This document shows, in pieces, positions 35,141 to 45,998 of a DNA stretch of 64,000 nucleotides (position 1 is its first letter; each line of letters begins with the position of its first letter). Below the pieces are notes generated by a model, which worked only from the letters and a program-made list of their open reading frames with translations, was not told where the DNA came from and did no database searches. Origin of the DNA: Deltaproteobacteria bacterium (lineage in GTDB: Bacteria; Myxococcota_A; Polyangia; Fen-1088). Location of the stretch: the NCBI GenBank assembly GCA_033763315.1, contig JANRKS010000020.1, positions 32,001 through 96,000 of the forward strand. The letters are read 5' to 3'. The position numbers and the translations under genes are program-made.

Positions 35141-35355
35141 TTGTGCCATTGCCTACACAGGCGCACCTGTGAAACGCGTGTTTGCGACAGCGACCGGCGG
35201 CGAAAGTTACATTTGCGCCGATGGCTTCAGGTTTGCTGTGGGGCAATCGATGGTTGGTGCTGGATTTTATGCGTCAACGCAAAGTATTATTTTGCGGCCA
35301 GCGAACTAGCCCTGATACTCGCAGCAAAGCAATGAGAGTCCCGGTGGGAGGAATT

Positions 35356-38300
35356 ATGCGAAAAGTAGCCCTAGCAGCAGCGTTTTTGTCCGCGACAGTT
35401 GTCGCAGGATGTGGTGATGACCTTCCGTCGAACATCGACGCCAACGTCGTCGTAGCCGATGGCGGCGGCGGCAACACGGGCGAAGGTGGGGTCCTCCCGG
35501 ACGCAGGTTGCCCCAGCGCTACGTTTATCTCGCCGGTACCGGCTGCGAAGCTCACCGCGGCGGATGACGTGGACGATCAGTGCAAAGCCAATGGCTTTCA
35601 GATTGACGTGAAGCTGGCCGTTGGCGCTCCCGATGGCACCCCGGTTACCTTGCTGGCGAACAACACACCGGTGGGGACTCCCGGTGTGGTTACAGGGGGC
35701 ACGGTGACTTTTGCGGGTGTTTCGCTGGCGACGAGCGGTGCATCGGCACTGGTCGCGCAGATTGGCAACGCGACGGGCTGTACGGCAAGCAACACGGTAG
35801 ACATCAATTGTTCTGCGGTCACCTGTAACATCACGAAGCCGGTAATCAGCGAGGCTCACCCCAAGCTGAACGACGTACCGGTGGCAGAAGGCGGAGACCG
35901 CGTGAGCTCGCCCGGGTCTGACTACCAGGCCGCGTTTGAAGTGACGACGAACGCAGGCGACAACAGTGTTGTGCAGCTGCAGGTTCGCCGCGCCGATGCG
36001 CCTGACGCTGTCGTTAACGTGAACGCCACCGTTTTGGGCGGAAAAGCGAATTTCCCCGGCGTGGCTTTGCGGCCGGATGGTGCTTTTCAAATTCAAGCAG
36101 TGTGTAGGTCCGGAGCCGTTGAGGGACGCTCGCAGTTAGGCACCTTCACAGTGGATACGGCGAAGCCTGATTTGACGGTGACGTCACCGATCGCGAATCA
36201 GTTCTACGGTCCTAGCACGGGACCTGGCGACCTTGATGGCAAGGTTGTCAATGGCAAATTCAAGGTTTGCGCCAGCACCATGGCGGCTGACGCAACCAAT
36301 GTGGGGATGGCCATAAACGGCGGCAAGAACTTGGGAGCAGCGATAGGGACATCAGCGATGACCTACGTCCCTGTTGCCGTTGGCGGTTCTGCTGGCAGCG
36401 GATGCGTCGAATTGGATTGCCTCGGCGGTGCGCCGTTCTCAGTCAACGTGTCTCTACGAGACGATGCTGGCAACGTTGCGACTAAGTCGATTGCGGGCGT
36501 CACCTGTGCCTCTGCGCTTCCAGGCGTGCAGATTGTTCAGCCAGTATCAGACTCAGCACCATACACTGATCCTTCCAAGCATCTCCTTGCTGCGAACGCA
36601 ACGCAGGCGTTCAAGGACAACGATCCGGCGATTGGCGGCGCGCAAACCCTTGTGGTCGCTTGTACGGACAAGAAGCTTGCGAAGGCTAAACTCTTCGTCG
36701 GGGTGGAAGGCGGCGCGCTTGACCAGGTGGGGTCGGAAGTAGATGTTGTCGATGCCGTGACGGGCGATGGCTGTCCTGCGGGTCTCGGGTTCGTCGCAAA
36801 ATGGCCGAAAGCTACTCTGCGCGACAGCACAATGAACACCGCAGGGGGGCTCATCTCGCCGACTCAGCTTCGTGTCGAAGTAACGGAGGTTTCTTCGGCC
36901 AAGGGTCAAAGTCCCATCGTGAGCCTGTGGGTTGATTCTACTGCTCCTACAGCAGATCCCCGAACACCCGCATGCGGAACACTGATCGAATCCACTGTGG
37001 ACCAGACACGCGAGCTCACCCTGATAACGTCATCCGCCTTGATCAAGCTGGTGGTGACGTCGAACGGCGCTCCGGCTGAATACGACCCGACAAGTATCCT
37101 TGGTAGCGTCGCGACTTTCTCAAACGTGCTCTTAAAGGTAGGCGAGAACGTACTAACGGCGGTTGTGCGGGATCCAGCCGGCAACCAGTCAGGCTTGAGC
37201 GGGGCTGCCTGCGCCATCAAGGTGGGCACGCCCCCCATCGTGAATTTCGTTTCGCCGGCGACAAATGCAAAACTCTGTGCTGTAGGTGGTTCAGGCTGCG
37301 TCGCAGATGCAGACGGCGCTACGGATGGTTGGCAGGGCACCGTCACTGTTTCGGTTACTGTTGCCGGAACTCCAGCTACGACAGGCACCGTGACTCTATC
37401 TAAGACAGGAGGAGATGCTATTGGGACTTCCAACGTGGTCAATGGCGTGGCCACCTTTTCAAGCGTCACGATTCCTGAAGGCACCGTGGCTATTTTAGCT
37501 GCCACCAGCGAATACCCATCGGCCGGAGTTGGTACAACAGCCTCCGCATTCACAGTCGATTCAAAAGTTCCCTCGGCGGTCGCCTCTTTGAGTGCGGAGA
37601 TACTTACAAGGCGAGAGTCGTCGTTTAAGCTTCGCTGGACGGCCCCTGACGACAATGGCCAACCCGCCGCGGCCTACGATATTCGAGTCTCCGAGGCCCC
37701 CTTGACCGAAGGAAATTTTTCTGCGGCTGAGGCGCTGACGTTTGCCGGTGTTCCGGCCGCTTCGGGCCAAGCAGAAGCCCTGGATGTTCGAGGCCGGAAA
37801 ATCGAAGCTGACTACTACTTCGGTGTCGTACCAGTCGACGCGGCCGGCAACCGTGGCCCCCTAGTGAAGCTCGATTTACCCACCCGCGCCTCCTTCAATA
37901 GGACCATCCTCAGCCCGCCGAGCATCGACCCCGACCAAACCAAAGAAGACGAGGCCGGCTATTCTGTCTCAGGGTACGGAGATCTAAACGGAGACGGCCG
38001 TGGCGACGTCATCGTGGGGACTCGACTAGGCAAGCGGGTGTTGGTCTATTTCGGCACGGCAATGTTCTCTCCCGACGCTCCCTCGCTGACTATCACCGGA
38101 ACCAGCGCCGGCTTTGGGCGGCATGCCATGCTTGTAGGCGATGTTGTTCAAAACCCTGATGAGCCGTCTAGTAGCAGCAAACCGGACCTAGCTGTGGCGT
38201 CTTCGGCCAACAAGATGTTCATTTTCGCGGGTCGGACGACCTGGCCCGCGACATTATCGGAGGCTGACGCTGATTTCGTTATCGACGGCGCTGGTAGCTC

Positions 38301-39222
38301 TGGACTTTTCGGTTACGTCTTGGCTCCTCTCGGGGATTTCGACTCGGATGGCATAGACGATTTGGCAATAGGAAATCCAACCTATGCCAGCAAAGGCCGG
38401 GTAGTGATTCTCCGTGGCTCCAAGTCTATGCCCGACACGGTATCGGTACCGGATGCTGCGAGGACCATACTGATCGACGGTTCGGCTGCTAACGGCCTCT
38501 TTGGCCTCAACTTGCAGGGTCTAGGCAAATTCTATTCTGGCGCAGGGGCGAGCCTCGTCGTTGGCGCTGACAGGGCCAACAGTGACGCCGGCAAAGTCTA
38601 CGTTTACAAGGGGCAGGCGGCGTTGTCTGGTTCGATTACTTCCTTCGATGCCAGTATTGACGGATCGCCGGGCAGTCGCTTGGGAGGGAATTTGGCAACG
38701 CTGGGACCAGTTAATGGCAGCACGAATGCCATCGGGCTGGCTTCGCTGTTCGCCGGAACCGGCGTCGTTCAATTGTACTTCGGCAACGAAACGGCAGGTC
38801 CCCTTGGTGGCACCTCAAAATCACTCACGAATGCGTCAGCGGTTGGTACGAACCAGTTCGGAATCGTCACCATCGGTGGGGCCTTCTCGGGTTCGGTGGC
38901 GGCATTTTCGCTGATAGGCAACGATGCTCCTGATATCGTTGTCGCTCCAACCCGCGAAGGCTCGGCTCCAGGCAAGCTCTATGTTTTGGATGGCTCGCAA
39001 TTGGGTAGCTTGGCGGCGTCCTCCGACGTAACGACCGCGGGAATAGCGTCCGTGGTATTGCCTTTGCCCAACGGCGAGAATGGAACGCGACCGTGGTTGG
39101 GGAATTCCAGCTTCAGTCGCCTCGTAAGGGATGTGGATGGTGATGGATACGTTGACCTTGCCATAGGCGAAGGCTCGTTGCCGGCATCCGACCGGCGTGG
39201 GCGAGTTCTTGTCTTCTGGTAA
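35356..39222 (+). CDS. Large surface lipoprotein with Ig-like, FN3 and FG-GAP (integrin-like) repeats
   Basis: GGAGG RBS, MRKVAL...VAGC lipobox; D.AGN repeats, LRWTAP.D (FN3), GDLNGDGRGDVIVG, GDFDSDGIDDLAIG, DVDGDGYVDLAIG. Confidence 0.85.
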   Translation: MRKVALAAAFLSATVVAGCGDDLPSNIDANVVVADGGGGNTGEGGVLPDAGCPSATFISPVPAAKLTAADDVDDQCKANGFQIDVKLAVGAPDGTPVTLLANNTPVGTPGVVTGGTVTFAGVSLATSGASALVAQIGNATGCTASNTVDINCSAVTCNITKPVISEAHPKLNDVPVAEGGDRVSSPGSDYQAAFEVTTNAGDNSVVQLQVRRADAPDAVVNVNATVLGGKANFPGVALRPDGAFQIQAVCRSGAVEGRSQLGTFTVDTAKPDLTVTSPIANQFYGPSTGPGDLDGKVVNGKFKVCASTMAADATNVGMAINGGKNLGAAIGTSAMTYVPVAVGGSAGSGCVELDCLGGAPFSVNVSLRDDAGNVATKSIAGVTCASALPGVQIVQPVSDSAPYTDPSKHLLAANATQAFKDNDPAIGGAQTLVVACTDKKLAKAKLFVGVEGGALDQVGSEVDVVDAVTGDGCPAGLGFVAKWPKATLRDSTMNTAGGLISPTQLRVEVTEVSSAKGQSPIVSLWVDSTAPTADPRTPACGTLIESTVDQTRELTLITSSALIKLVVTSNGAPAEYDPTSILGSVATFSNVLLKVGENVLTAVVRDPAGNQSGLSGAACAIKVGTPPIVNFVSPATNAKLCAVGGSGCVADADGATDGWQGTVTVSVTVAGTPATTGTVTLSKTGGDAIGTSNVVNGVATFSSVTIPEGTVAILAATSEYPSAGVGTTASAFTVDSKVPSAVASLSAEILTRRESSFKLRWTAPDDNGQPAAAYDIRVSEAPLTEGNFSAAEALTFAGVPAASGQAEALDVRGRKIEADYYFGVVPVDAAGNRGPLVKLDLPTRASFNRTILSPPSIDPDQTKEDEAGYSVSGYGDLNGDGRGDVIVGTRLGKRVLVYFGTAMFSPDAPSLTITGTSAGFGRHAMLVGDVVQNPDEPSSSSKPDLAVASSANKMFIFAGRTTWPATLSEADADFVIDGAGSSGLFGYVLAPLGDFDSDGIDDLAIGNPTYASKGRVVILRGSKSMPDTVSVPDAARTILIDGSAANGLFGLNLQGLGKFYSGAGASLVVGADRANSDAGKVYVYKGQAALSGSITSFDASIDGSPGSRLGGNLATLGPVNGSTNAIGLASLFAGTGVVQLYFGNETAGPLGGTSKSLTNASAVGTNQFGIVTIGGAFSGSVAAFSLIGNDAPDIVVAPTREGSAPGKLYVLDGSQLGSLAASSDVTTAGIASVVLPLPNGENGTRPWLGNSSFSRLVRDVDGDGYVDLAIGEGSLPASDRRGRVLVFW

Positions 39223-40999
39223 ACCAACGTTCTCCCACTTTTGTGCGGTCTTTACGGATGAGGACGGCGCAATGTGGGCCAGTCTCCCGGCGACGGCGAT
39301 ACGCGTTCGTTGGGAAGACTGGCCGGCAAATACCGCCACACATGCCCTTTATTCGGACGGTGATAGAATTTGCCTCGCAACTGGACGTGTAGATAACCTC
39401 AGCGACTTAGGGAAAACAGCAGGCATCAATGTCCCCTTTGGGACAAATCTTCCCTTCTGTATAGCGGCGCTGTACCGAAAATTGGGCAGCAGGCTGTTTG
39501 ACAAGATCGAAGGCGACTTATCGGTTGTAATTGGAGATCGTCCAAGCCGAAGTGTGCTTGCGTATCGAGACGCATTCGGCGTAGGACAACTATTTTCTTG
39601 GGAATCAGGGCGAACCCAGATTCTGTCTTCGTCCTGCGACCTTTTGCTTTCGCTATTGCCGCGGAGGCCAGCGATCGATGAAGTGACGGTGTGCGAATAC
39701 CTTTCGGGACGCCCTCGCTTCCTAGATCGCACTTACTTCAAGACGATACGTTCGATCAGGCCCGGTCATGTCGACGTGACATCCGGGGGCCGTCGGCAGA
39801 CCAGTTGCTCAACCCGCTTGACGCCCAAAGGCGACGCCGAGGAGAGCGACGTGATTTTCGCTCTACGGAAGTCCGTGTGGCATCGCCTTTTCGACACGCG
39901 GAGCGCAGTTGTTCATTTGAGCGGGGGTCTTGACTCATCAGCGATATCCGCTCTGGCGGATGCTTTGAAGAATGATGGTGAACTCCCTTCGACTGATCTC
40001 CACCTCCTTTCTTCTCTTTTCCCTGGGACGGCCTCGGATGAGAGCCGGGGGATACGGAGGACCTTGACGCAGCTCCGCTTGCCCTGGAAATCACGTGACG
40101 CGACATCCTTCCCATTCTTCTGCCCTTCAACGATTGCTCTCGATCGCCCATCGTTTCGCCCGTGGTTACTAAACCCCGATCCTACCGAGTTCGCCCTAGC
40201 CCGCGAAGTCCACGCAGAAGCGAGCTTAACTGGCTTCGGTGGTGACGAACTCTTCTATTCAGTCGGGGCGATAGCCGAGGCCTTGAAGGCTGGCCACCTA
40301 GCAACGTTCGCCAAACAGTTGTTTAGGTTTACTCGGTGGCACCATAGAGGTGCCGTTCTGGCGACTATCAGGGACGCATTACAGGCTGAGAAGCTTGGTA
40401 AATGGCCGTGCGCACCCGTAACACCTCCACCCGAGTGGTTGGCCCCAAATGCAAGACCTTACTGGGAAGAAATGAACCGGTCACCCGTCGACTATGCGAT
40501 CGAACCATCCGAAGCGACCGAGAACGTGACACTCAGTAGGATTTTCGGGCCATCTATGCTGCGATCAGCGCATTCGAGGACTTGGATTGGAGCTGAAAAT
40601 GGCGTTGCGATGAGATTTCCGTACCTTGAGAAGGACGTTGTCGAGACGGTCCTGGGATTGTCCCGACGCCCACCGAATGGCGATGCGCGCCATCTTCAAA
40701 GGAACATGCTCAAAACCCTCCTTCCTTTTGTCGGGGTCCAGAGGCGGAAGAAGACATCCGTAGGCCCGGTGATGTGGTCTAACCTTCGAAAAATACGAAC
40801 CGAAATCGCCGACTATTGGCGTTCCGATTGGCTGGTGGGGAGTTATGTCGAGCGCAGCTTCGTGGGGGCTGCGGACAAGGCACTGTCGAAAGTATTAGAT
40901 CCTGGCCCACATACGCCTGTCTGGAGTCTGCCAATCCTTAGGGTGCTTACGCTAGAAGCTTGGCTGCGAAGGATTTCTGGCTATAATAGACTGTCTTAA
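39197..40999 (+). CDS. Lasso peptide cyclase (asparagine synthetase-like, C protein)
   Basis: RDAFGVGQL, HLSGGLDSS, LTGFGGDELF, RFPYL.KDVVE; no N-terminal catalytic Cys of AsnB; immediately upstream of the precursor and B2; start could be ATG 39272. Confidence 0.85.
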   Translation: MGEFLSSGKPTFSHFCAVFTDEDGAMWASLPATAIRVRWEDWPANTATHALYSDGDRICLATGRVDNLSDLGKTAGINVPFGTNLPFCIAALYRKLGSRLFDKIEGDLSVVIGDRPSRSVLAYRDAFGVGQLFSWESGRTQILSSSCDLLLSLLPRRPAIDEVTVCEYLSGRPRFLDRTYFKTIRSIRPGHVDVTSGGRRQTSCSTRLTPKGDAEESDVIFALRKSVWHRLFDTRSAVVHLSGGLDSSAISALADALKNDGELPSTDLHLLSSLFPGTASDESRGIRRTLTQLRLPWKSRDATSFPFFCPSTIALDRPSFRPWLLNPDPTEFALAREVHAEASLTGFGGDELFYSVGAIAEALKAGHLATFAKQLFRFTRWHHRGAVLATIRDALQAEKLGKWPCAPVTPPPEWLAPNARPYWEEMNRSPVDYAIEPSEATENVTLSRIFGPSMLRSAHSRTWIGAENGVAMRFPYLEKDVVETVLGLSRRPPNGDARHLQRNMLKTLLPFVGVQRRKKTSVGPVMWSNLRKIRTEIADYWRSDWLVGSYVERSFVGAADKALSKVLDPGPHTPVWSLPILRVLTLEAWLRRISGYNRLS

Positions 41000-41017: not shown

Positions 41018-41185
41018 ATGACCAAGCAAAGCTCGAAGGCCAAGTCCGTCACTGAACTGAAAGAGAAATCCTACAGGGCTCCCGAGGTGAGGGCTGTGGG
41101 AAACCTAAAGGACTTAGTGTCAGGTGGACTGGGAACTGTCCAGGACGGAGGAGAGCTTCCAGGTGAGGATCGACAGGCTCAATAG
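41018..41185 (+). CDS. Lasso peptide precursor (55 aa)
   Basis: Hand translation: MTKQSSKAKSVTELKEKSYRAPEVRAVGNLKDLVS-GGLGTVQDGGELPGEDRQAQ; YxxPxVxxxG leader motif; Gly1 and Asp8 in the core. Confidence 0.85.
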   Translation: MTKQSSKAKSVTELKEKSYRAPEVRAVGNLKDLVSGGLGTVQDGGELPGEDRQAQ

Positions 41186-41197
41186 CAAAGGTGACTG

Positions 41198-41554
41198 TTG
41201 CTCAGAGCGGGCATCCTAGTGTGTCTGGTGGCGCCCTTGGTTGAAGCCTTGCGAAGGTCTTCTGATGCCGCCACTGCGCTTGGGATTTGTAGAGCCGTAG
41301 GACGTTATCAACCGACGAAGGAAGGAAGATTCAAGGACAGCCTCGCCCGATGTGTGTCGGGAGTGGATCTTCGGATGCCTGGAGGACCAAACTGTTTTCG
41401 GAGAGTACTTCTGCTCTCCGCATGTGATAGGTCTGCTGCGCTGACGTCGGTTAAATTCGGAATTGTGGCGGGTGGCGGGGCTAAGTCCGGTCACGCCTGG
41501 CTGGCATCTGAAAGTGTGGATGTAAGCCTCTACGACGCGGTCTTCGACCTATAG
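41198..41554 (+). CDS. Lasso peptide leader peptidase B2 (transglutaminase-like)
   Basis: NCFRR (cf. CLxRS), VKFGI, GHAWL; directly after the precursor. Confidence 0.8.
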   Translation: MLRAGILVCLVAPLVEALRRSSDAATALGICRAVGRYQPTKEGRFKDSLARCVSGVDLRMPGGPNCFRRVLLLSACDRSAALTSVKFGIVAGGGAKSGHAWLASESVDVSLYDAVFDL

Positions 41555-42570
41555 TTTCTGATCGCGGCTTGAAGACTGTCAAGGTTGCTTGGACTGTCGA
41601 GTGCCGCTGAACGGCAATTAGCAGCGAGGTGGCACGCGGACCTAAATGCCCCTATCAACGTGGGTGGTTGCGAAGTTCCGATAAAGAGATTCTGAAACAA
41701 CTCAGTAGCAGCTTCAAGGGGCGCAAGCTGTCGAAATCCGAACTCCTCTCTGTCGCTACGTCTCTGGGCGCTAATGTGCCATATCCACGAAAGCGGCTCC
41801 CACGAGTCGGTCGAAAGCACTGGGAATTCTAAGTACGAGTGGTGATCAGCTGCGAGGTGGGTTGCTGCGGCCCGAGCCCATTCCCGAACTTGGCTTTCAA
41901 ATGTAGAGGCCACAAGCGGCTGCGACTCCTTGTTAGCGGATCGGAGACCCTGTACTACGCAGAGATCCTCTGATACCAGCCTAGCTCCTTGGCTCTGAAA
42001 GGCACGTGCGAGTGTCGTCTTGCCGGCCCCACTGTGACCGACGGCCATAACGGTTTCTCCTTCCACTTGAAATGCGGAAGCGTGCACTACGAAGTGTCCC
42101 CGCGCGGAGAGCAACTTGGGTGCCACCGCTAGAAGCGCTCGATAGGCGAAGGACATTTGTCCCTCCAAAGGACCAGCGAGCCATCGAATGACGAAGTCTT
42201 CTTTTTCGATGTTTACGATTGCCGATTTTTCGAGCGTGAGTTCCCAGCAGTCCGCCTTTTCAACAAAGGAGAAGTCGCCGGTCCATCTCGCTCGTTCGAG
42301 GGGTACAAAGTCCAACAGGTGTGACAACAATGTCGAACTAATTCCGACCGCCTCCGGCAACGATACCTTCATCAACTCAGCTACCTGGGAGAAGGCAGCT
42401 TCCATGCTGGGAGAGCTTAGGAGCACCTTTATGACCAGCTGCGCCTCGTCATTGAGGCTGAAGAGCTCACCAGTCTCGGCATCAAGGAGTAGGGAATCGA
42501 GAGCCACAGATTGCAGAAAGAAGCGGCTCTTAAGGTCCTTGATTTCCATGTGAGGTTTCGATGTAGTCAT
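41530..42570 (-). CDS. RRE(PqqD)-fused HPr-kinase-like P-loop protein, candidate lasso tailoring kinase
   Basis: N-terminal LLLDAETGELFSLNDEAQLVIKVL (PqqD-like); VVHASA, GHSGAGKTT, LVSED. Confidence 0.75.
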   Translation of the reverse strand: MTTSKPHMEIKDLKSRFFLQSVALDSLLLDAETGELFSLNDEAQLVIKVLLSSPSMEAAFSQVAELMKVSLPEAVGISSTLLSHLLDFVPLERARWTGDFSFVEKADCWELTLEKSAIVNIEKEDFVIRWLAGPLEGQMSFAYRALLAVAPKLLSARGHFVVHASAFQVEGETVMAVGHSGAGKTTLARAFQSQGARLVSEDLCVVQGLRSANKESQPLVASTFESQVREWARAAATHLAADHHSYLEFPVLSTDSWEPLSWIWHISAQRRSDREEFGFRQLAPLEAATELFQNLFIGTSQPPTLIGAFRSACHLAANCRSAALDSPSNLDSLQAAIRNYRSKTAS

Positions 42571-42851
42571 TCGGGTTGGCCCGGTTGGATATCCAGCAAA
42601 CCCCAGGCTTGTAGTTTGCCAACCACCGACGACACATCGGAAGTTGCTGCCTCACCTCCGCCGCACTCATTCTTAACCTCTTTGATCAAGTCTTCGAGAG
42701 ATGTCGGCTTGGAGAGCATCCTCCATACGAAGTAAGCAGTCTCGTTGAGTTCCCAGCAGTCCCCCGAGCGCGCGTCAACGAGTACTGCTCCGGCGCTGGT
42801 TGGGCGGCTCAGGACGTTAGGATTGGTCTGATATCGCATCCGCACATTCAT
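42567..42851 (-). CDS. Stand-alone PqqD/RRE (lasso B1) protein
   Basis: AVLVDARSGDCWELNETAYFVWRML..P.SLEDLI...DV..VV.KL..WGLL; overlaps the kinase start. Confidence 0.85.
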   Translation of the reverse strand: MNVRMRYQTNPNVLSRPTSAGAVLVDARSGDCWELNETAYFVWRMLSKPTSLEDLIKEVKNECGGGEAATSDVSSVVGKLQAWGLLDIQPGQPE

Positions 42852-43671
42852 GGCTGTCAGCAAGGTCTTTAGCTCTTGACCCCTCCCATAGCGTGGCTAT
42901 CCCTGCAAGTTAACACTGCCGAAGCATCAGTTAGCGCCTGAGCGTTGGCACGATGAAGGCATTGACGTTGATCTCTCTCCTAGGATACCAGGAACCAGGG
43001 TGTTGTTGTAAGGCGAGGTGCATCCATCACCCCTTCACGCGATGGCCTCGCAGTCGGGCAATCAACCCGTCGGACGATTGATCCGGTGGTACTGCCTGCC
43101 GTTTTTAACGCTGGCTCGTGTTTGTACGGCTTGGCTCGCTGCCAATCAAACCAACTGCGAGGAGAGAGGACCTCACGCTGCAACAGTGCCCCAATCACTA
43201 GCAATGCCTCTTTACCTTGTCCTCCAGCACGACCCAAAAGATCGAAACAATACACTGGACGTTCGGCCGCGCGCAGGCTCGACGCTCCTCCATGACCGGT
43301 TCGGGCGAAGGCGCATCGCATCCTACCTAGAGCTGGTGGCGCGGTTCCTTACAAGAGAGGTGGGGGGCCCGGAGACGATGAAGAGACGTCCGCCTTGTTC
43401 GATGCGGCTCAGCTTGCCAACCCATGACGAAGCGCCCTACATCCGCGTCCGGGGGTTCACCGCTGCTTTGCCTGCCGTAATCGTCACCCCCTCGCGGACG
43501 ACTTGCACCCGAACGATGCCGGGGATGTGGTGTTGAGCCAGACTGATGGCCAGCCGTATCGAGCCTCCCCAACTGACGAAGATGAGGCGATCCGTCGTGC
43601 GGATGGCGCCCCCATTTCAAAGCTTCTTTGCACGAGCGCTCCGTGCGGCCGCTGCGCAAGAAAGACCCGCA

Positions 43672-44181
43672 TCAGCCCCCCAAGACATCGCGCACAGAAG
43701 CCGCCGTCAGGGCCGCCGCATGCCACTTCCGCAACAACGCAACGTCGCGGCTGCGTTCAATGCGTTCGCGCTCTTCTTCCAGCGGTTCCAATCCCCGTAG
43801 GCGCAGCACGGCGAGAACCGCTTGCGCTAGGCGATAGGCCTCTCCCTCCGCCTTGCCCTCCGCCTTGCCTTCCGCCTTGCCTTCGCTGTGGGCCCGTCGA
43901 AGGCTTTGGTCTTGGAATTGGTAGTTTTGTGGAATCATGTTCAAAGCCTTTTTGACTTGATCGCTCAGTGCAGCCCGGATGAGATCGTAATAATACATCG
44001 CCGTTCGACCGTCGGGCAGGCTCAGCGCCGCCTCGATGGCCGTGCGAGCTATCTTGACTGCGCGGGTCGTGTTTTTGTCGTGCCCGTGGCAGATCGCCGA
44101 AAGAACCGCTAACGCTGTGTTCTGTTCAGCTTGCGCCAAGTCCCCTACGGCAGGCATTTGGTCCGGCCCCAGGACAACACG
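43672..44181 (-). pseudogene. 5'-truncated remnant of an Rpn/transposase_31-like (EGKAEG-repeat) protein
   Basis: VLGPDQMP..., LAVLSAICHG, EGKAEGKAEGKAEG, VLRLRGL, L..W..AALTA.S; an in-frame stop lies just upstream, so the N-terminal domain is missing. Confidence 0.6.
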
Positions 44182-44350
44182 AGGAAGGCTGCTCTCGAAG
44201 CATTTCTACGATCGCTTGGTGTCGTTGCGACGGCACACCCGGTCTTCGGCACACGCTCGCAACTGTTGCTTACAAAACGCAACCGCCCTCAACACACTTA
44301 AGCGGTGGTATTCTTGGCGTTTCGAAACGAACGTCTTTAAGCGATATCAG

Positions 44351-45271
44351 ATGCCTCAAAGCAACGACGATCTCTTCTCCCGCAATCTCACGCACACCCA
44401 GCAGCTCTTGCGGGAGGCCGAGGAGGTGCTGCAACGGCTTGCTAGGAACCGCGCGGCCATGGCGCGGCCGCGCGTGATGGTTCCAGCTTTGGTCGAGCCG
44501 CCACCGCCCCACGTGCCCGAACCCCCACCGCCTTTGGAGCTCTTGGCCAAGCGGCGACGAGCGCCGAACGAAATAACGCATGAGGAACGAAGTGGTTTTA
44601 CGCGCCTTTTCGCCAAGCGCGGATTTATCGTCAATGCCGACCTGCGCGCTATTTCCGGGTTGGACGTGGCGCAGGCAAGCGTGCGTCTGCGTGTTTTCCG
44701 TAACGCAGAATTATTGCGACAAGATGGCCTTGGTTCCCTGACAAAATATTACCCCGGTCCACGGTGGCAGCCCCTAGAGCTGGAACCGCATGCCGCGCCC
44801 CCGCCCAATCCCGCTGAGATAAACGTCACCATTGGCACGCCACGCGATGTACAAGCGCTTGCAAATCTGCGCGCGCAACAGGTGCAACCAATGACCGTTG
44901 TTACATCAAGCGAGGCGTCAGGCAAAATCGAGAATTTATTGCGGCAGTTGCGCTCGCGCCGCAATGTTCTGCTTCTTGCATCCGATGTGGAGGGCAATCT
45001 CGTCGGTTATTTGCACTGCGGCTTGGACGAAAAACGGGGCGATCGCATCGGCTCTATCTATGCGTTCTATCTTGCCCCTGGTGCGCACCAGAACGCTCGG
45101 CTTCGTTTATTTGAAACCGCGAAGCGGTGGTTGACCCAACAAGGCGCCTTAAGGATTCGTGTGCAGGTGCCGCATGAGGCCTCGCCCGCGCAAGCCTTCT
45201 TTGCAGAGCAACAATTTAACCCCGCCAGCGTTGAAATGGAGCTGTTTGTGGGAGCCACGGTCAAGACGTAA
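44351..45271 (+). CDS. Winged-HTH plus GNAT acetyltransferase fusion protein
   Basis: IVNADLRAISGLDVAQAS.RL...LLRQDGLGSLTKY (wHTH-like); LVGYL...IYAFYLAP...LFETAKRWL...AQAFF (GNAT); ATG 44351. Confidence 0.6.
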   Translation: MPQSNDDLFSRNLTHTQQLLREAEEVLQRLARNRAAMARPRVMVPALVEPPPPHVPEPPPPLELLAKRRRAPNEITHEERSGFTRLFAKRGFIVNADLRAISGLDVAQASVRLRVFRNAELLRQDGLGSLTKYYPGPRWQPLELEPHAAPPPNPAEINVTIGTPRDVQALANLRAQQVQPMTVVTSSEASGKIENLLRQLRSRRNVLLLASDVEGNLVGYLHCGLDEKRGDRIGSIYAFYLAPGAHQNARLRLFETAKRWLTQQGALRIRVQVPHEASPAQAFFAEQQFNPASVEMELFVGATVKT

Positions 45272-45428
45272 CGGCCGGGCGCCTATGTGCACGAGTCGTG
45301 TTGCTGTCGCGCCCGTGACAGATTGCAGAAAGGACAGCCAAGCCTGAGACATTTCGGCGTTGAGATGGACCTTGTGGTCGCGCTTAAGGTCAAAAAGAAG
45401 CGCCCGCAGCCGCCTTGACGTTGCTGGT

Positions 45429-45998
45429 TTAACCTCGAAACACGGCATCAAGCGCGACGCTGACTTCAGCGAATGCAGGCCAGGTCAGTGATGAGGTGCT
45501 GCCCACCACTGCACTCTGTTGATAGCGGCCATCGACTGAATTCAATCGCCATTGCGTAACCGTACGCAGATCTGGATCCGCTACCCAGTATTCGGGAATG
45601 CCGAAACGTTCATAAAGGTGCAGCTTCAGCTGCAGATCGCGCTCTCCTGAACTTGGTGACAAAATCTCCACCACGAGATCCGGAACACCTTCGATGCCTC
45701 GGTTTGTGATGATGCCTTCGCGCGCCTTCGAAACAACCACGAGGTCTGGCTGCACCACGGTCTCGTCATCCAGCATAAGGTCGATGGGCGCGTCGAATAC
45801 CTGTGCAAGCCCTGTCTCCTCAAGTTGCTTCATAAGCGCAAACTGAAGACGGCGAGACACCGTCTGGTGGCGCGGAGCGGGGGCGGGGGTCACGTAGAAG
45901 TCTCCTTCGATAAGCTCGTGACGCTTGCCATCCTCGGGAAGCAGGCAGTACTCCCGGTATGTGAAGGGGCGGGGGCGTGGAGCCGACTGAGAACGCAC
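45429..45998 (-). CDS. Uma2-family (DUF820) endonuclease-like protein
   Basis: RHELIEG, PAPRHQ, VQPDL, PDLVVEILSPS, GIPEYWVADP. Confidence 0.92.
   Translation of the reverse strand: MRSQSAPRPRPFTYREYCLLPEDGKRHELIEGDFYVTPAPAPRHQTVSRRLQFALMKQLEETGLAQVFDAPIDLMLDDETVVQPDLVVVSKAREGIITNRGIEGVPDLVVEILSPSSGERDLQLKLHLYERFGIPEYWVADPDLRTVTQWRLNSVDGRYQQSAVVGSTSSLTWPAFAEVSVALDAVFRG

What the first reader, a model, noticed from the sequence alone, without database searches (positions are those of the whole stretch)
41530..42570. RRE-fused HPr-kinase-like enzyme whose canonical substrate residue is absent
Seen: the first ~85 aa resemble the neighbouring PqqD (LLLDAETGELFSLNDEA vs VLVDARSGDCWELNETA), followed by HASA, Walker A GHSGAGKTT and SED (ED rather than DD). 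Established: paeninodin-type lasso kinases phosphorylate the C-terminal Ser of the precursor. Here the core ends in Gln and has no Ser; its only hydroxyl residue is Thr5 inside the ring (plus Ser at leader position -1). Inference: the fused RRE suggests a leader-directed modification with new regiochemistry, such as ring Thr phosphorylation, carboxylate activation, or control of leader cleavage.
Basis: partly seen in the sequence, partly recalled or inferred. Interest (0 to 1): 0.8.

Follow-up and report, generated by a model that had tools for sequence, protein, structure and literature searches.

The report
RRE-fused lasso peptide kinase
This gene encodes a lasso-peptide tailoring kinase that carries its own leader-binding domain and most likely phosphorylates a threonine inside the peptide ring, a variant of an enzyme type already shown to phosphorylate ring serines.

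Summary
Window 41530-42570(-) encodes a 346-aa protein. Residues 9-89 fold as a lasso B1-type RRE (Z 8.1 to TfuB1). Residues 98-346 fold as an HprK/PEPCK-type P-loop kinase (Z 8.5-9.6). It sits in a C-A-B2 / K-B1 lasso cluster. The core ends in Gln, and Thr5 is its only hydroxyl residue.

The fusion is a real family, with 204 cluster representatives at E<=1e-10. It is strictly linked to one precursor family: 37 of 37 strong precursor matches share a contig with it. Precursors keep Ser/Thr at core position 5 in 25 of 33 cases and a C-terminal Ser in only 2 of 33. The catalytic motif H163-G178-G181-G183-K184-T185-E201-D202 has the same spacing as in BsfK. A complex model places leader residues -17 to core 4 on the fused RRE (0.86 versus control 0.01).

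BsfK (Duan 2023) already phosphorylates ring Ser3 of a precursor that lacks a C-terminal Ser. Three things appear new: the built-in RRE with a separate B1 retained, Glu in place of the first Asp, and a probable position-5 acceptor. I found no paper on such a fusion. Nothing has been tested biochemically. I rate it a new variant of a known kind, of moderate interest.

The parts
39197..40999 (+). Lasso cyclase C (600 aa, asparagine-synthase-like)
   Evidence: Pfam Asn_synthase 7.8e-21 and GATase_7. NCBIfam macrolactam and lasso cyclase models at 1e-22 to 1e-25, below their cut-offs. It is the only copy in the genome. Conserved in 15 of 17 loci.
41018..41185 (+). Precursor peptide A (55 aa). Leader is 41018-41122 (35 aa, with Tyr-17, Pro-14, Val-12, Val-2, Ser-1). 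Core is 41123-41182 (20 aa, Gly1 to Asp8 ring, ends in Gln).
   Evidence: ORF and DNA. Family alignment A2 of 33 distinct precursors. Cleavage-site ruler from PMC10368454 section 22. The precursor profile finds 37 places at E<=1e-10 in 89 genomes.
41135..41137 (+). Codon of core Thr5, the proposed phosphate acceptor
   Evidence: Thr5 is the only Ser/Thr/Tyr in the window's core. Position 5 is Ser or Thr in 25 of 33 precursors. This is an inference and has not been assayed.
41198..41554 (+). Leader peptidase B2 (118 aa, transglutaminase-like). Its 3' end overlaps the 3' end of K by 25 nt, convergently.
   Evidence: Weak hits: NF033537 lasso_biosyn_B2 at 0.0063 and Transglut_core3 at 0.0096. Conserved in 17 of 17 loci.
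41530..42570 (-). K: RRE-fused HprK-like lasso peptide kinase (346 aa). This is the finding.
42304..42546 (-). K residues 9-89: RRE / PqqD-like winged-helix module (three strands then three helices)
   Evidence: DSSP on the model. Z 8.1 and 8.0 to the lasso B1 proteins 6jx3_B and 5v1u_A. Profile hits to B1 genes. In the complex model the leader contacts residues 27-29, 33-43, 77-93 and others.
41533..42279 (-). K residues 98-346: HprK/PEPCK-type P-loop kinase domain
   Evidence: PEPCK 1ii2_B Z 9.6 over residues 98-344. HprK/P 1ko7, 1jb1 and 3tqf Z 8.5 over 159-346. Foldseek E from 5.5e-5 (PEPCK) to 3.9e-4 (HprK/P).
42013..42039 (-). Walker A, residues G178-T186 (GHSGAGKTT)
   Evidence: G178, G183 and K184 are invariant. 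S180, G181, A182, T185 and T186 are conserved in at least 90% of 96 sequences.
42082..42084 (-). His163 (in the HASA motif), invariant
   Evidence: Corresponds to H148 of BsfK by spacing.
41965..41970 (-). Glu201-Asp202 (in the SED motif), in place of Asp-Asp
   Evidence: D202 is invariant and E201 is conserved in at least 90%. BsfK has D186-D187 at the same distance from its His and Lys.
42567..42863 (-). B1: stand-alone PqqD/RRE (98 aa). Its stop codon overlaps the K start (ATGA).
   Evidence: Pfam PqqD 7.6e-14, above its cut-off. lasso_PqqD_Strm 2.1e-13. Overlap read.

Best explanation
K is a leader-guided Ser/Thr kinase of a lasso peptide pathway.

Proposed mechanism:
1. The N-terminal RRE of K binds the YxxPxL...GN part of the leader of the linear precursor, by strand addition to its third beta-strand.
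2. The core is thereby held against the attached HprK-type P-loop domain.
3. That domain transfers the gamma-phosphate of ATP (or another NTP) to a ring-forming Ser/Thr. In this window that is Thr5, the only hydroxyl residue in the core.
4. The phosphorylated precursor then passes to B1/B2 for leader removal.
5. C closes the Gly1-Asp8 ring.

Because the kinase has its own RRE, it should not need B1 in trans. BsfK, by contrast, does.

Shown here: the two folds, the family-wide catalytic motif, the gene linkage, the conserved position-5 Ser/Thr, and a controlled model of leader docking.

Inferred: catalysis, the acceptor residue, the order of steps and independence from B1.
For: Folds: RRE Z 8.1/8.0 and HprK/P Z 8.5 on a model with pLDDT 94.4.

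Catalytic motif: H163-G178-G181-G183-K184-T185-E201-D202 has exactly the spacing of BsfK's H148-G163-G166-G168-K169-S170-D186-D187. Ala variants at six of these eight positions lowered activity or solubility; G166A and G168A did not. H163, G178, G183, K184 and D202 are invariant in 96 sequences.

Linkage: the C-A-B2 / K-B1 arrangement recurs in relatives. All 37 of 37 precursor matches at E<=1e-10 lie on a contig that also holds a K match. The B1 stop overlaps the K start. Natural B1-RRE-kinase fusions exist: P0003, P0054 and P0088 each show two PqqD stretches.

Acceptor: Ser/Thr at core position 5 in 25 of 33 precursors, at position 4 only in 5, and somewhere in positions 2-7 in 33 of 33. C-terminal Ser in 2 of 33. 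Position -1 is Ala in most, so Ser(-1) is not conserved.

Docking: complex model ipSAE 0.86 (median of three runs) against a best control of 0.01. That mark was reached by 58 of 80 solved complexes and 2 of 110 mismatched pairs. The runs agree in at least 67% of contacts, and partner pLDDT is at least 52. The interface covers precursor residues 19-39 and K residues 27-43 and 77-93, plus 289-309. The nearly invariant RRE residues G34 and N40 lie within that interface.

Precedent: BsfK phosphorylates ring Ser3 before leader removal and needs the leader.
Against: - There is no biochemical evidence.
- The confident interface of the complex model stops at core residue 4. It names no P-loop residue, nor His163 or Asp202, so the model does not place Thr5 in the active site.
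- Solved RRE-leader complexes (6jx3, 5v1u) exist, so the docking pass may reflect likeness to them rather than binding by this copy. The job also differed from its calibration, because it used my own alignments and carried ATP and Mg.
- 3 of 33 precursors lack Ser/Thr at positions 4 and 5.
- 15 of 33 also have Ser/Thr at position 3, the BsfK site, so position 5 is not singled out across the family.
- The 33 precursors are related, and no kinase-free control set exists in this order. The motif could therefore serve B2 or C instead.
- The window's RRE is divergent: it fails the Pfam PqqD threshold and its tree branch is 2.59 against a median of 0.75.
- The first Asp of the His-Lys-Asp-Asp set is Glu.
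- A separate B1 is retained, which leaves the purpose of a second RRE unexplained.
Confidence: 0.6

Rival explanations
1. K is an active kinase, but its acceptor is not ring Thr5. It could be a leader Ser/Thr such as Ser(-1), another protein, or a small molecule. In that case the RRE only tethers K to the pathway.
For: The complex model does not place Thr5 at the P-loop. The window's leader holds several Ser/Thr, including Ser(-1). 3 of 33 precursors lack Ser/Thr at positions 4 and 5.
Against: Position -1 is Ala in nearly all relatives (at least 90% in A2). The N-terminal parts of the leaders do not align. Every core has a Ser/Thr in positions 2-7 (33 of 33). The characterised relatives act on core residues.
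Confidence: 0.1
2. K is mainly a non-catalytic or regulatory second RRE protein. It would act as a chaperone or scaffold that holds the precursor and gates B2 cleavage or C cyclisation, with ATP binding serving only as a switch.
For: A stand-alone B1 is kept beside it. The leader groove is modelled at the RRE-kinase domain interface. Glu replaces the first catalytic Asp.
Against: His163, Lys184, Asp202 and the P-loop glycines are invariant across 96 diverged sequences at 22-39% identity. That pattern is expected for catalysis. Glu for Asp is conservative and family-wide, so it is not a decay of this one copy.
Confidence: 0.1
3. K starts a different end chemistry on the ring Ser/Thr. Options are polyphosphorylation as in ThcoK, SyanK and LppK, phosphorylation followed by elimination to dehydrobutyrine, or a phosphate that a further enzyme decorates.
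For: Polyphosphorylation is reported for ThcoK, SyanK, BsfK variants and LppK. An NTP_transf_5 gene of the PsmN type lies near K in 8 of 16 related loci.
Against: The window and its genome lack that nucleotidyltransferase. There is no match in the window, and only one sub-threshold, stop-containing fragment elsewhere in the genome. No lyase or glycosyltransferase is conserved in the cluster.
Confidence: 0.12

Closest known systems
BsfK, lasso peptide kinase of Bradymonas sediminis (Duan et al. 2023, PMC10368454)
   Same: Both are HprK-like kinases in lasso clusters with split B1/B2. The His-Gly-Gly-Gly-Lys-Ser/Thr-acid-Asp motif has identical spacing. In both, the precursor has no C-terminal Ser, a hydrophobic residue at -2 rather than Thr, YxxPxL at -17 to -12, a Gly1-Asp8 ring, and a hydroxyl residue inside the ring. 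BsfK acts on the leader-bearing precursor.
   Different: By my reading of the printed gene, BsfK has no RRE of its own, and it is strongly stimulated by B1 in trans. Its site is Ser3; here position 3 is Leu and the only candidate is Thr5. BsfK has Asp-Asp where this protein has Glu-Asp. The bsf cluster also has D and N genes, which this one lacks.
PadeK / ThcoK / SyanK / PsmK (paeninodin-type lasso kinases)
   Same: All are HprK-like tailoring kinases of lasso precursors that act before leader removal. [quoted passage not shown]
   Different: Those enzymes phosphorylate, and can polyphosphorylate, a conserved C-terminal Ser. Here the core ends in Gln, and only 2 of 33 family precursors end in Ser.
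LppK (HprK-like kinase of the LPP RiPP family, PMC13381572)
   Same: It is an HprK-like kinase that phosphorylates a core Ser near the N-terminus (Ser3), in a pathway that depends on an RRE.
   Different: Its RRE (LppB) is a discrete protein. The pathway is not a lasso pathway and uses signal-peptidase-type cleavage. It occurs in Bacillota.
Lasso B1 proteins TfuB1 (6jx3) and TbiB1 (5v1u)
   Same: Residues 9-89 of K have the same fold (Z 8.1 and 8.0) and are homologous to the cluster's own B1. The leader is modelled on the same strand edge.
   Different: In K the domain is fused to a kinase. On the tree the K RREs form a side of their own, separate from the B1 proteins (branch support 100/100).
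HPr kinase/phosphorylase (HprK/P; 1ko7, 1jb1, 3tqf)
   Same: The C-terminal P-loop fold and the His, Lys and Asp positions match.
   Different: Scores fall far below family cut-offs: PF07475 21.8 versus 33.3 bits, and TIGR00679 20.6 versus 240. The N-terminal domain is different, the substrate is a peptide, and the gene sits in a RiPP cluster.

Membership tests
Lasso-peptide tailoring kinases (HprK-like; PadeK/ThcoK/SyanK/PsmK/BsfK) | HprK/PEPCK-type P-loop kinase fold | tested here: met
   VIA-align Z 8.5 to HprK/P (113-117 residues aligned, rmsd 3.1-3.5) and Z 9.6 to PEPCK. Foldseek E 5.5e-5 to 1e-3.
Lasso-peptide tailoring kinases (HprK-like; PadeK/ThcoK/SyanK/PsmK/BsfK) | Conserved His...GxxGxGK[ST]...Asp-Asp motif with fixed spacing | tested here: met
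   The spacing of H163, G178, G181, G183, K184, T185, E201, D202 is identical to that of BsfK's H148, G163, G166, G168, K169, S170, D186, D187 as printed in the paper. The first Asp is Glu, which is a conservative change and family-wide.
Lasso-peptide tailoring kinases (HprK-like; PadeK/ThcoK/SyanK/PsmK/BsfK) | Encoded in a lasso cluster beside A, B1, B2 and C | tested here: met
   (37 of 37 precursor matches share a contig with K).
Lasso-peptide tailoring kinases (HprK-like; PadeK/ThcoK/SyanK/PsmK/BsfK) | ATP-dependent phosphorylation of the leader-bearing precursor | not testable with these tools
   Needs an enzyme assay with MS.
Paeninodin subtype of lasso kinases | Conserved C-terminal Ser of the precursor as acceptor | tested here: not met
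   The core ends in Gln and has no Ser. 2 of 33 family precursors end in Ser.
Bsf subtype of lasso kinases | Ring Ser/Thr at core position 3 as acceptor; kinase without an RRE, helped by B1 | tested here: not met
   Position 3 is Leu in the window and Ser/Thr in 15 of 33 relatives. K carries its own RRE. The acceptor itself has not been assayed.
RiPP recognition element / PqqD (PF05402) | Winged-helix fold: three-stranded sheet followed by three helices | tested here: met
   Strands 17-22, 25-30 and 35-38; helices 41-52, 56-67 and 71-86. Z 8.1 and 8.0 to lasso B1 proteins and 6.4 to PqqD 5sxy.
RiPP recognition element / PqqD (PF05402) | Sequence score above the curated cut-off | tested here: not met
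   The window copy has no Pfam PqqD hit at E<=0.1. lasso_PqqD_Strm scores 23.8 bits against a cut-off of 70. 82 of 96 relatives match PqqD at E<=1e-3, and the family's N-terminal profile hits B1 genes at 1e-10 to 1e-18.
RiPP recognition element / PqqD (PF05402) | Binds the leader peptide | tested here: inconclusive
   The model supports binding: 0.86 against a best control of 0.01, a mark reached by 58 of 80 solved and 2 of 110 mismatched pairs. It is a prediction, and like complexes have been solved.
HPr kinase/phosphorylase proper (TIGR00679, PF07475) | Score above the curated cut-off | tested here: not met
   20.6 versus 240 bits, and 21.8 versus 33.3 bits.
HprK-related kinase A / B (TIGR04352, TIGR04355) | Score above the curated cut-off | tested here: not met
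   25.1 and 25.0 bits against a cut-off of 200. Only about 50 residues around the P-loop match.

The most novel reading that the evidence does not exclude
A self-sufficient lasso kinase. Its built-in RRE, which arose from a single ancient split from the B1 line, would let it phosphorylate ring position 5 (Thr5 here) without B1. That site has not been reported for any lasso peptide. The same leader would then be handed from one RRE to the other, kinase first and peptidase second. The cluster is chromosomally fixed, has no exporter, and is syntenic across a whole myxobacterial-type family. That pattern hints at a physiological phospho-lasso rather than an antibiotic.
Probability: 0.4. Interest if true: 0.55.

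Novelty: new variant of a known kind. Interest (0 to 1): 0.45.

Why it matters
Lasso kinases are among the few enzymes that place phosphate on RiPPs, and only two site types are documented: C-terminal Ser and ring Ser3. A family with its own leader-binding domain gives a compact two-component system of kinase plus precursor. Such a system could be used to study how an RRE positions a core at an active site, and to engineer site-specific peptide phosphorylation. It also bears on why a pathway keeps two RREs for one leader. The 33 precursors with a shared G-x-x-G-[ST]-x-x-D ring motif give a ready set for testing regioselectivity.

Tried and rejected
- **C-terminal Ser as acceptor:** rejected. 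The core ends in Gln, and 2 of 33 relatives end in Ser.
- **Membership of HprK/P proper and of HprK-related kinase A/B:** rejected on score.
- **Whole-model Foldseek:** listed only PEPCK and HprK/P, so the RRE was not seen there. VIA-align against all representatives showed it.
- **Kinase-free control for the position-5 Ser/Thr:** none exists in this order. Every strong precursor match lies beside K.
- **Direct alignment with BsfK, PadeK or ThcoK:** BsfK appears only as codon-optimised DNA in a paper. I used the motif positions printed in that paper.
- **Paeninodin JBC paper (PMC4919450):** not held.
- **PF27840:** precomputed for two homologues, but not in the local Pfam, so its meaning is unknown.
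- **Literature:** eight searches found no paper describing an RRE-fused lasso kinase. Subscription papers (Tietz 2017, Zhu 2016 JBC and FEBS Lett) and the supplements of Duan 2023 could not be seen and may bear on this. Those supplements hold the kinase alignment and the Acidobacteriaceae and Sphingomonadales precursors.
- **First position-statistics script:** not run. The computation was done from the stored alignment instead.
Full report
**What is there**

The ORF at 41530-42570(-) is open and encodes 346 aa. It lies in a five-gene lasso peptide cluster:
- cyclase C, 39197-40999(+)
- a 55-aa precursor, 41018-41185(+)
- peptidase B2, 41198-41554(+)
- K (the finding), convergent to these
- a stand-alone PqqD/B1, 42567-42863(-)

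The B1 stop codon overlaps the first ATG of K (ATGA). The 3' ends of K and B2 overlap by 25 nt. The genome holds only this one lasso cyclase.

**The observation**

Curated models barely see K:
- Hpr_kinase_C scores 21.8 bits against a cut-off of 33.3.
- HprK_rel_A and HprK_rel_B score 25 bits against 200.
- lasso_PqqD_Strm scores 23.8 bits against 70, on residues 27-71.
- There is no Pfam PqqD hit.
- PDB sequences give only P-loop noise and a weak TfuB1 hit at E 0.57.

Deeper evidence settles the matter.

Searching the full library of representatives finds 1910 relatives at E<=1e-3, 204 at E<=1e-10 and 3 at E<=1e-30. Most of the 150 listed are 320-345 aa and align from about residue 15 to about 340. 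The word-indexed search had found only 8.

I aligned the window protein with 95 of those 150. I chose near-full-length rows and left out fragments and longer fusions (A1).
- H163, G178, G183, K184, D202 and P327 are invariant.
- G34, N40, A74, S180, G181, A182, T185, T186, E201 and others are conserved in at least 90%.
- 82 of the 96 members match Pfam PqqD at E<=1e-3. Only 13 of 96 match Hpr_kinase_C.

With A1, AlphaFold2 gives a model with pLDDT 94.4 and pTM 0.91. It has three strands and three helices in residues 17-86, followed by an alpha/beta domain.

Foldseek on the whole model lists PEPCK (from 5.5e-5) and HprK/P (3tqf 3.9e-4, 1kkl 1e-3). VIA-align against 48,161 representative chains gives:

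| Match | Z | K residues |
|---|---|---|
| PEPCK 1ii2_B | 9.6 | 98-344 |
| HprK/P 1ko7, 1jb1, 3tqf | 8.5 | 159-346 |
| TfuB1 with leader, 6jx3_B (rmsd 3.0, 81 of 85 residues) | 8.1 | 9-89 |
| TbiB1 with leader, 5v1u_A | 8.0 | 11-89 |

Further RREs follow in the list: CteB, TbtB, PqqD and McbB. Z values near 8 are in the range the tool calls common. However, both RRE matches cover a whole domain, and they are the lasso B1 proteins specifically.

Three more results tie the N-terminus of K to B1:
- An HMM of only the first 95 residues of the K family hits 28 distinct small ORFs in the related loci at 5e-10 to 3e-18. The window's own B1 is among them at 5.3e-14.
- The full K profile also hits the adjacent B1 genes at about 1e-12.
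- On a tree of 65 RRE modules, 34 K modules lie on one side of a branch with 100/100 support. The other side holds all 29 B1 modules plus 2 modules from long ORFs that carry a B1-type module in front.

That tree has few columns and is midpoint-rooted, so it shows separation, not direction. The window's K module sits on a long branch (2.59 against a median of 0.75). This explains why it escapes Pfam.

**The precursor**

Duan et al. place Tyr, Pro and Leu of the YxxPxL motif at -17, -14 and -12 (PMC10368454, section 22). In the window these positions hold Tyr, Pro and Val. The leader therefore ends ...DLVS, and the 20-residue core starts GGLGT, has Asp8 and ends in Gln. Thr5 is its only Ser/Thr/Tyr.

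**Comparative evidence**

Among 61 genomes of relatives, 40 match K at E<=0.01. Outside the window's own taxonomic family, however, only the region around the P-loop matches. In the order, which is a single family of 89 genomes:
- 46 genomes match the K profile at E<=1e-10.
- 35 places in 34 genomes match over the full length.

I fetched extended loci. By tblastn and clustering, B2 is present in 17 of 17 loci, K and B1 in 17 of 17, and C in 15 of 17. The misses are at contig ends.

Between C and B2 there is always a small ORF with the leader Y-E-x-P-x-L-x-x-x-G-N-x-x-D-L-[LV]-A. I analysed 33 distinct precursors:

| Feature | Count |
|---|---|
| Gly at position 1 | 27 of 33 |
| Asp at position 8 | 28 of 33 |
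| Ser/Thr at position 5 | 25 of 33 |
| Ser/Thr at position 4 but not 5 | 5 of 33 |
| Ser/Thr at neither 4 nor 5 | 3 of 33 |
| Ser/Thr at position 3 | 15 of 33 |
| Some Ser/Thr in positions 2-7 | 33 of 33 |
| C-terminal Ser | 2 of 33 |

The overall Ser/Thr content is 19%. None of 20,000 within-core shuffles reached 25 at any of positions 2-7. The sequences are kin, so this is not a probability.

A precursor profile finds 37 places at E<=1e-10 in the 89 genomes. Comparing the two tables, all 37 lie on contigs that also hold a K match. In one genome (G061) that K match contains 2 TGA stops; in two others (G029, G101) the match is partial, one of them at a contig end. I analysed 33 of these precursors and did not fetch the rest. 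No kinase-free set of this precursor family exists to serve as a control.

Some relatives encode B1 and K as one chain. P0003, P0054 and P0088 each show two PqqD stretches followed by the kinase, and G019 looks the same.

**Docking**

I modelled K (alignment A1) with ATP, Mg and the precursor (alignment A2).
- The score was ipSAE 0.86 (runs 0.87, 0.86, 0.84) against a best control of 0.01.
- That mark was reached by 58 of 80 solved complexes and 2 of 110 mismatched pairs.
- The runs agree in at least 67% of contacts, and the partner's pLDDT is at least 52.
- The calibration holds only roughly here, because my own alignments and riding ligands were used.
- Precursor residues 19-39 (Tyr-17 to core Gly4) touch K residues 27-29, 33-43, 45-46, 67-93, 100-104, 148, 152 and 289-309. 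The tightest pairs are leader 23-31 against strand 33-38, which is the usual RRE mode.
- Solved B1-leader complexes exist, so the pass may come from likeness to them.
- Thr5 and the P-loop are not in the confident interface.

**What is known**

Reviews and primary papers describe PadeK, ThcoK, SyanK and PsmK as HprK-like kinases. They (poly)phosphorylate a conserved C-terminal Ser of the linear precursor and share a His-Lys-Asp-Asp set (PMC9266682, passages).

Duan et al. 2023 (abstract and sections 10, 22 and 23 read) report the following for BsfK:
- It phosphorylates ring Ser3 of BsfA, whose core ends in Asp.
- B1 strongly stimulates the reaction.
- The core alone is not a substrate.
- Position -2 is Ile.
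- The motif is H148-G163-G166-G168-K169-S170-D186-D187.

K has the same spacing: H163, +15, +18, +20, +21, +22, +38, +39. It has Thr in place of Ser, and Glu in place of the first Asp. LppK phosphorylates core Ser3 in a non-lasso RiPP that uses a discrete RRE (PMC13381572, passages).

Ring phosphorylation is therefore established. What I did not find in eight literature searches is a lasso kinase with a fused RRE, or phosphorylation at position 5. Subscription papers and all supplements were out of reach.

**Mechanism proposed**

The sequence of events would be:
1. The RRE of K binds the leader.
2. The kinase domain phosphorylates the ring Ser/Thr, which is Thr5 in this window.
3. B1 and B2 remove the leader.
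4. C closes the Gly1-Asp8 ring.

The folds, motif, linkage and conservation are shown. The docking is modelled with controls. Catalysis, acceptor, order of steps and independence from B1 are inferred. My confidence is 0.6. The rivals are another acceptor (0.1), a mainly non-catalytic scaffold (0.1) and a different end chemistry on the same residue (0.12).

**Context**

An NTP_transf_5 gene of the PsmN type lies near K in 8 of 16 related loci. It is absent from the window, and the genome holds only a sub-threshold fragment with a stop codon. No transporter is conserved in the cluster.

The cluster sits in a conserved chromosomal neighbourhood. A 1346-aa FG-GAP protein lies upstream in 15 of 17 loci, and EtfAB lies downstream in 8. 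The one named relative is a MAG titled Polyangia bacterium.

**Verdict**

This is a new variant of a known kind, with an interest score of 0.45.

Noticed in passing
window 35182-39222 (+): A 1346-aa protein with FG-GAP repeats lies directly upstream of the cyclase. Its end overlaps the cyclase start. A homologue is present in 15 of 17 related loci. Whether this is a link to the lasso cluster or plain synteny is open.
   Followed up: partly
L012:9293-10312(-), and L018, L005, L025, L023, L021, L016, L020: An NTP_transf_5 (PF14907) gene lies near K/B1 in 8 of 16 related loci. This is the kind of N gene known from the pseudomycoidin and bsf clusters. It is absent from the window, and the genome holds only a sub-threshold fragment with a stop codon.
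   Followed up: partly
P0003, P0054, P0088; L019 (G019): Natural single-chain fusions exist in which a B1-type RRE is followed by the K-type RRE and the kinase. Each shows two PqqD stretches.
   Followed up: partly
L072, L073 (G020), L075 (G023), L061: Relatives in the same taxonomic family also hold a second type of cluster, with an HprK-like kinase that lacks the RRE. These kinases match the K profile only from about position 95. They lie beside a cyclase, B1 and sometimes N. Candidate precursors there again start G-x-x-G-[ST] (L072, L073). One has Thr at -2 and a C-terminal Thr; the other has Val at -2.
   Followed up: partly
A2 (33 precursors): 18 of 33 cores have two or more Cys, which suggests disulfide-bridged lasso peptides. 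The window's core has none. The residue at -2 is Leu or Val instead of the classical Thr in all 33.
   Followed up: no
window 42864-45428: The stretch between B1 and the Uma2 gene holds ORFs with no family (43018-43536 +, 43672-44157 -) and a 411-aa ORF with a weak C-terminal GNAT match (44036-45271 +). None falls into a cluster shared with four or more related loci, so the stretch looks specific to this genome.
   Followed up: no
window 45429-45998 (-): A gene for a Uma2-family putative restriction endonuclease (PF05685, 2.4e-35).
   Followed up: no
G061:C3:1345956-1346917: In one relative the K match is split and contains 2 TGA codons, while the precursor next to it is intact. This may be a decaying copy.
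   Followed up: no
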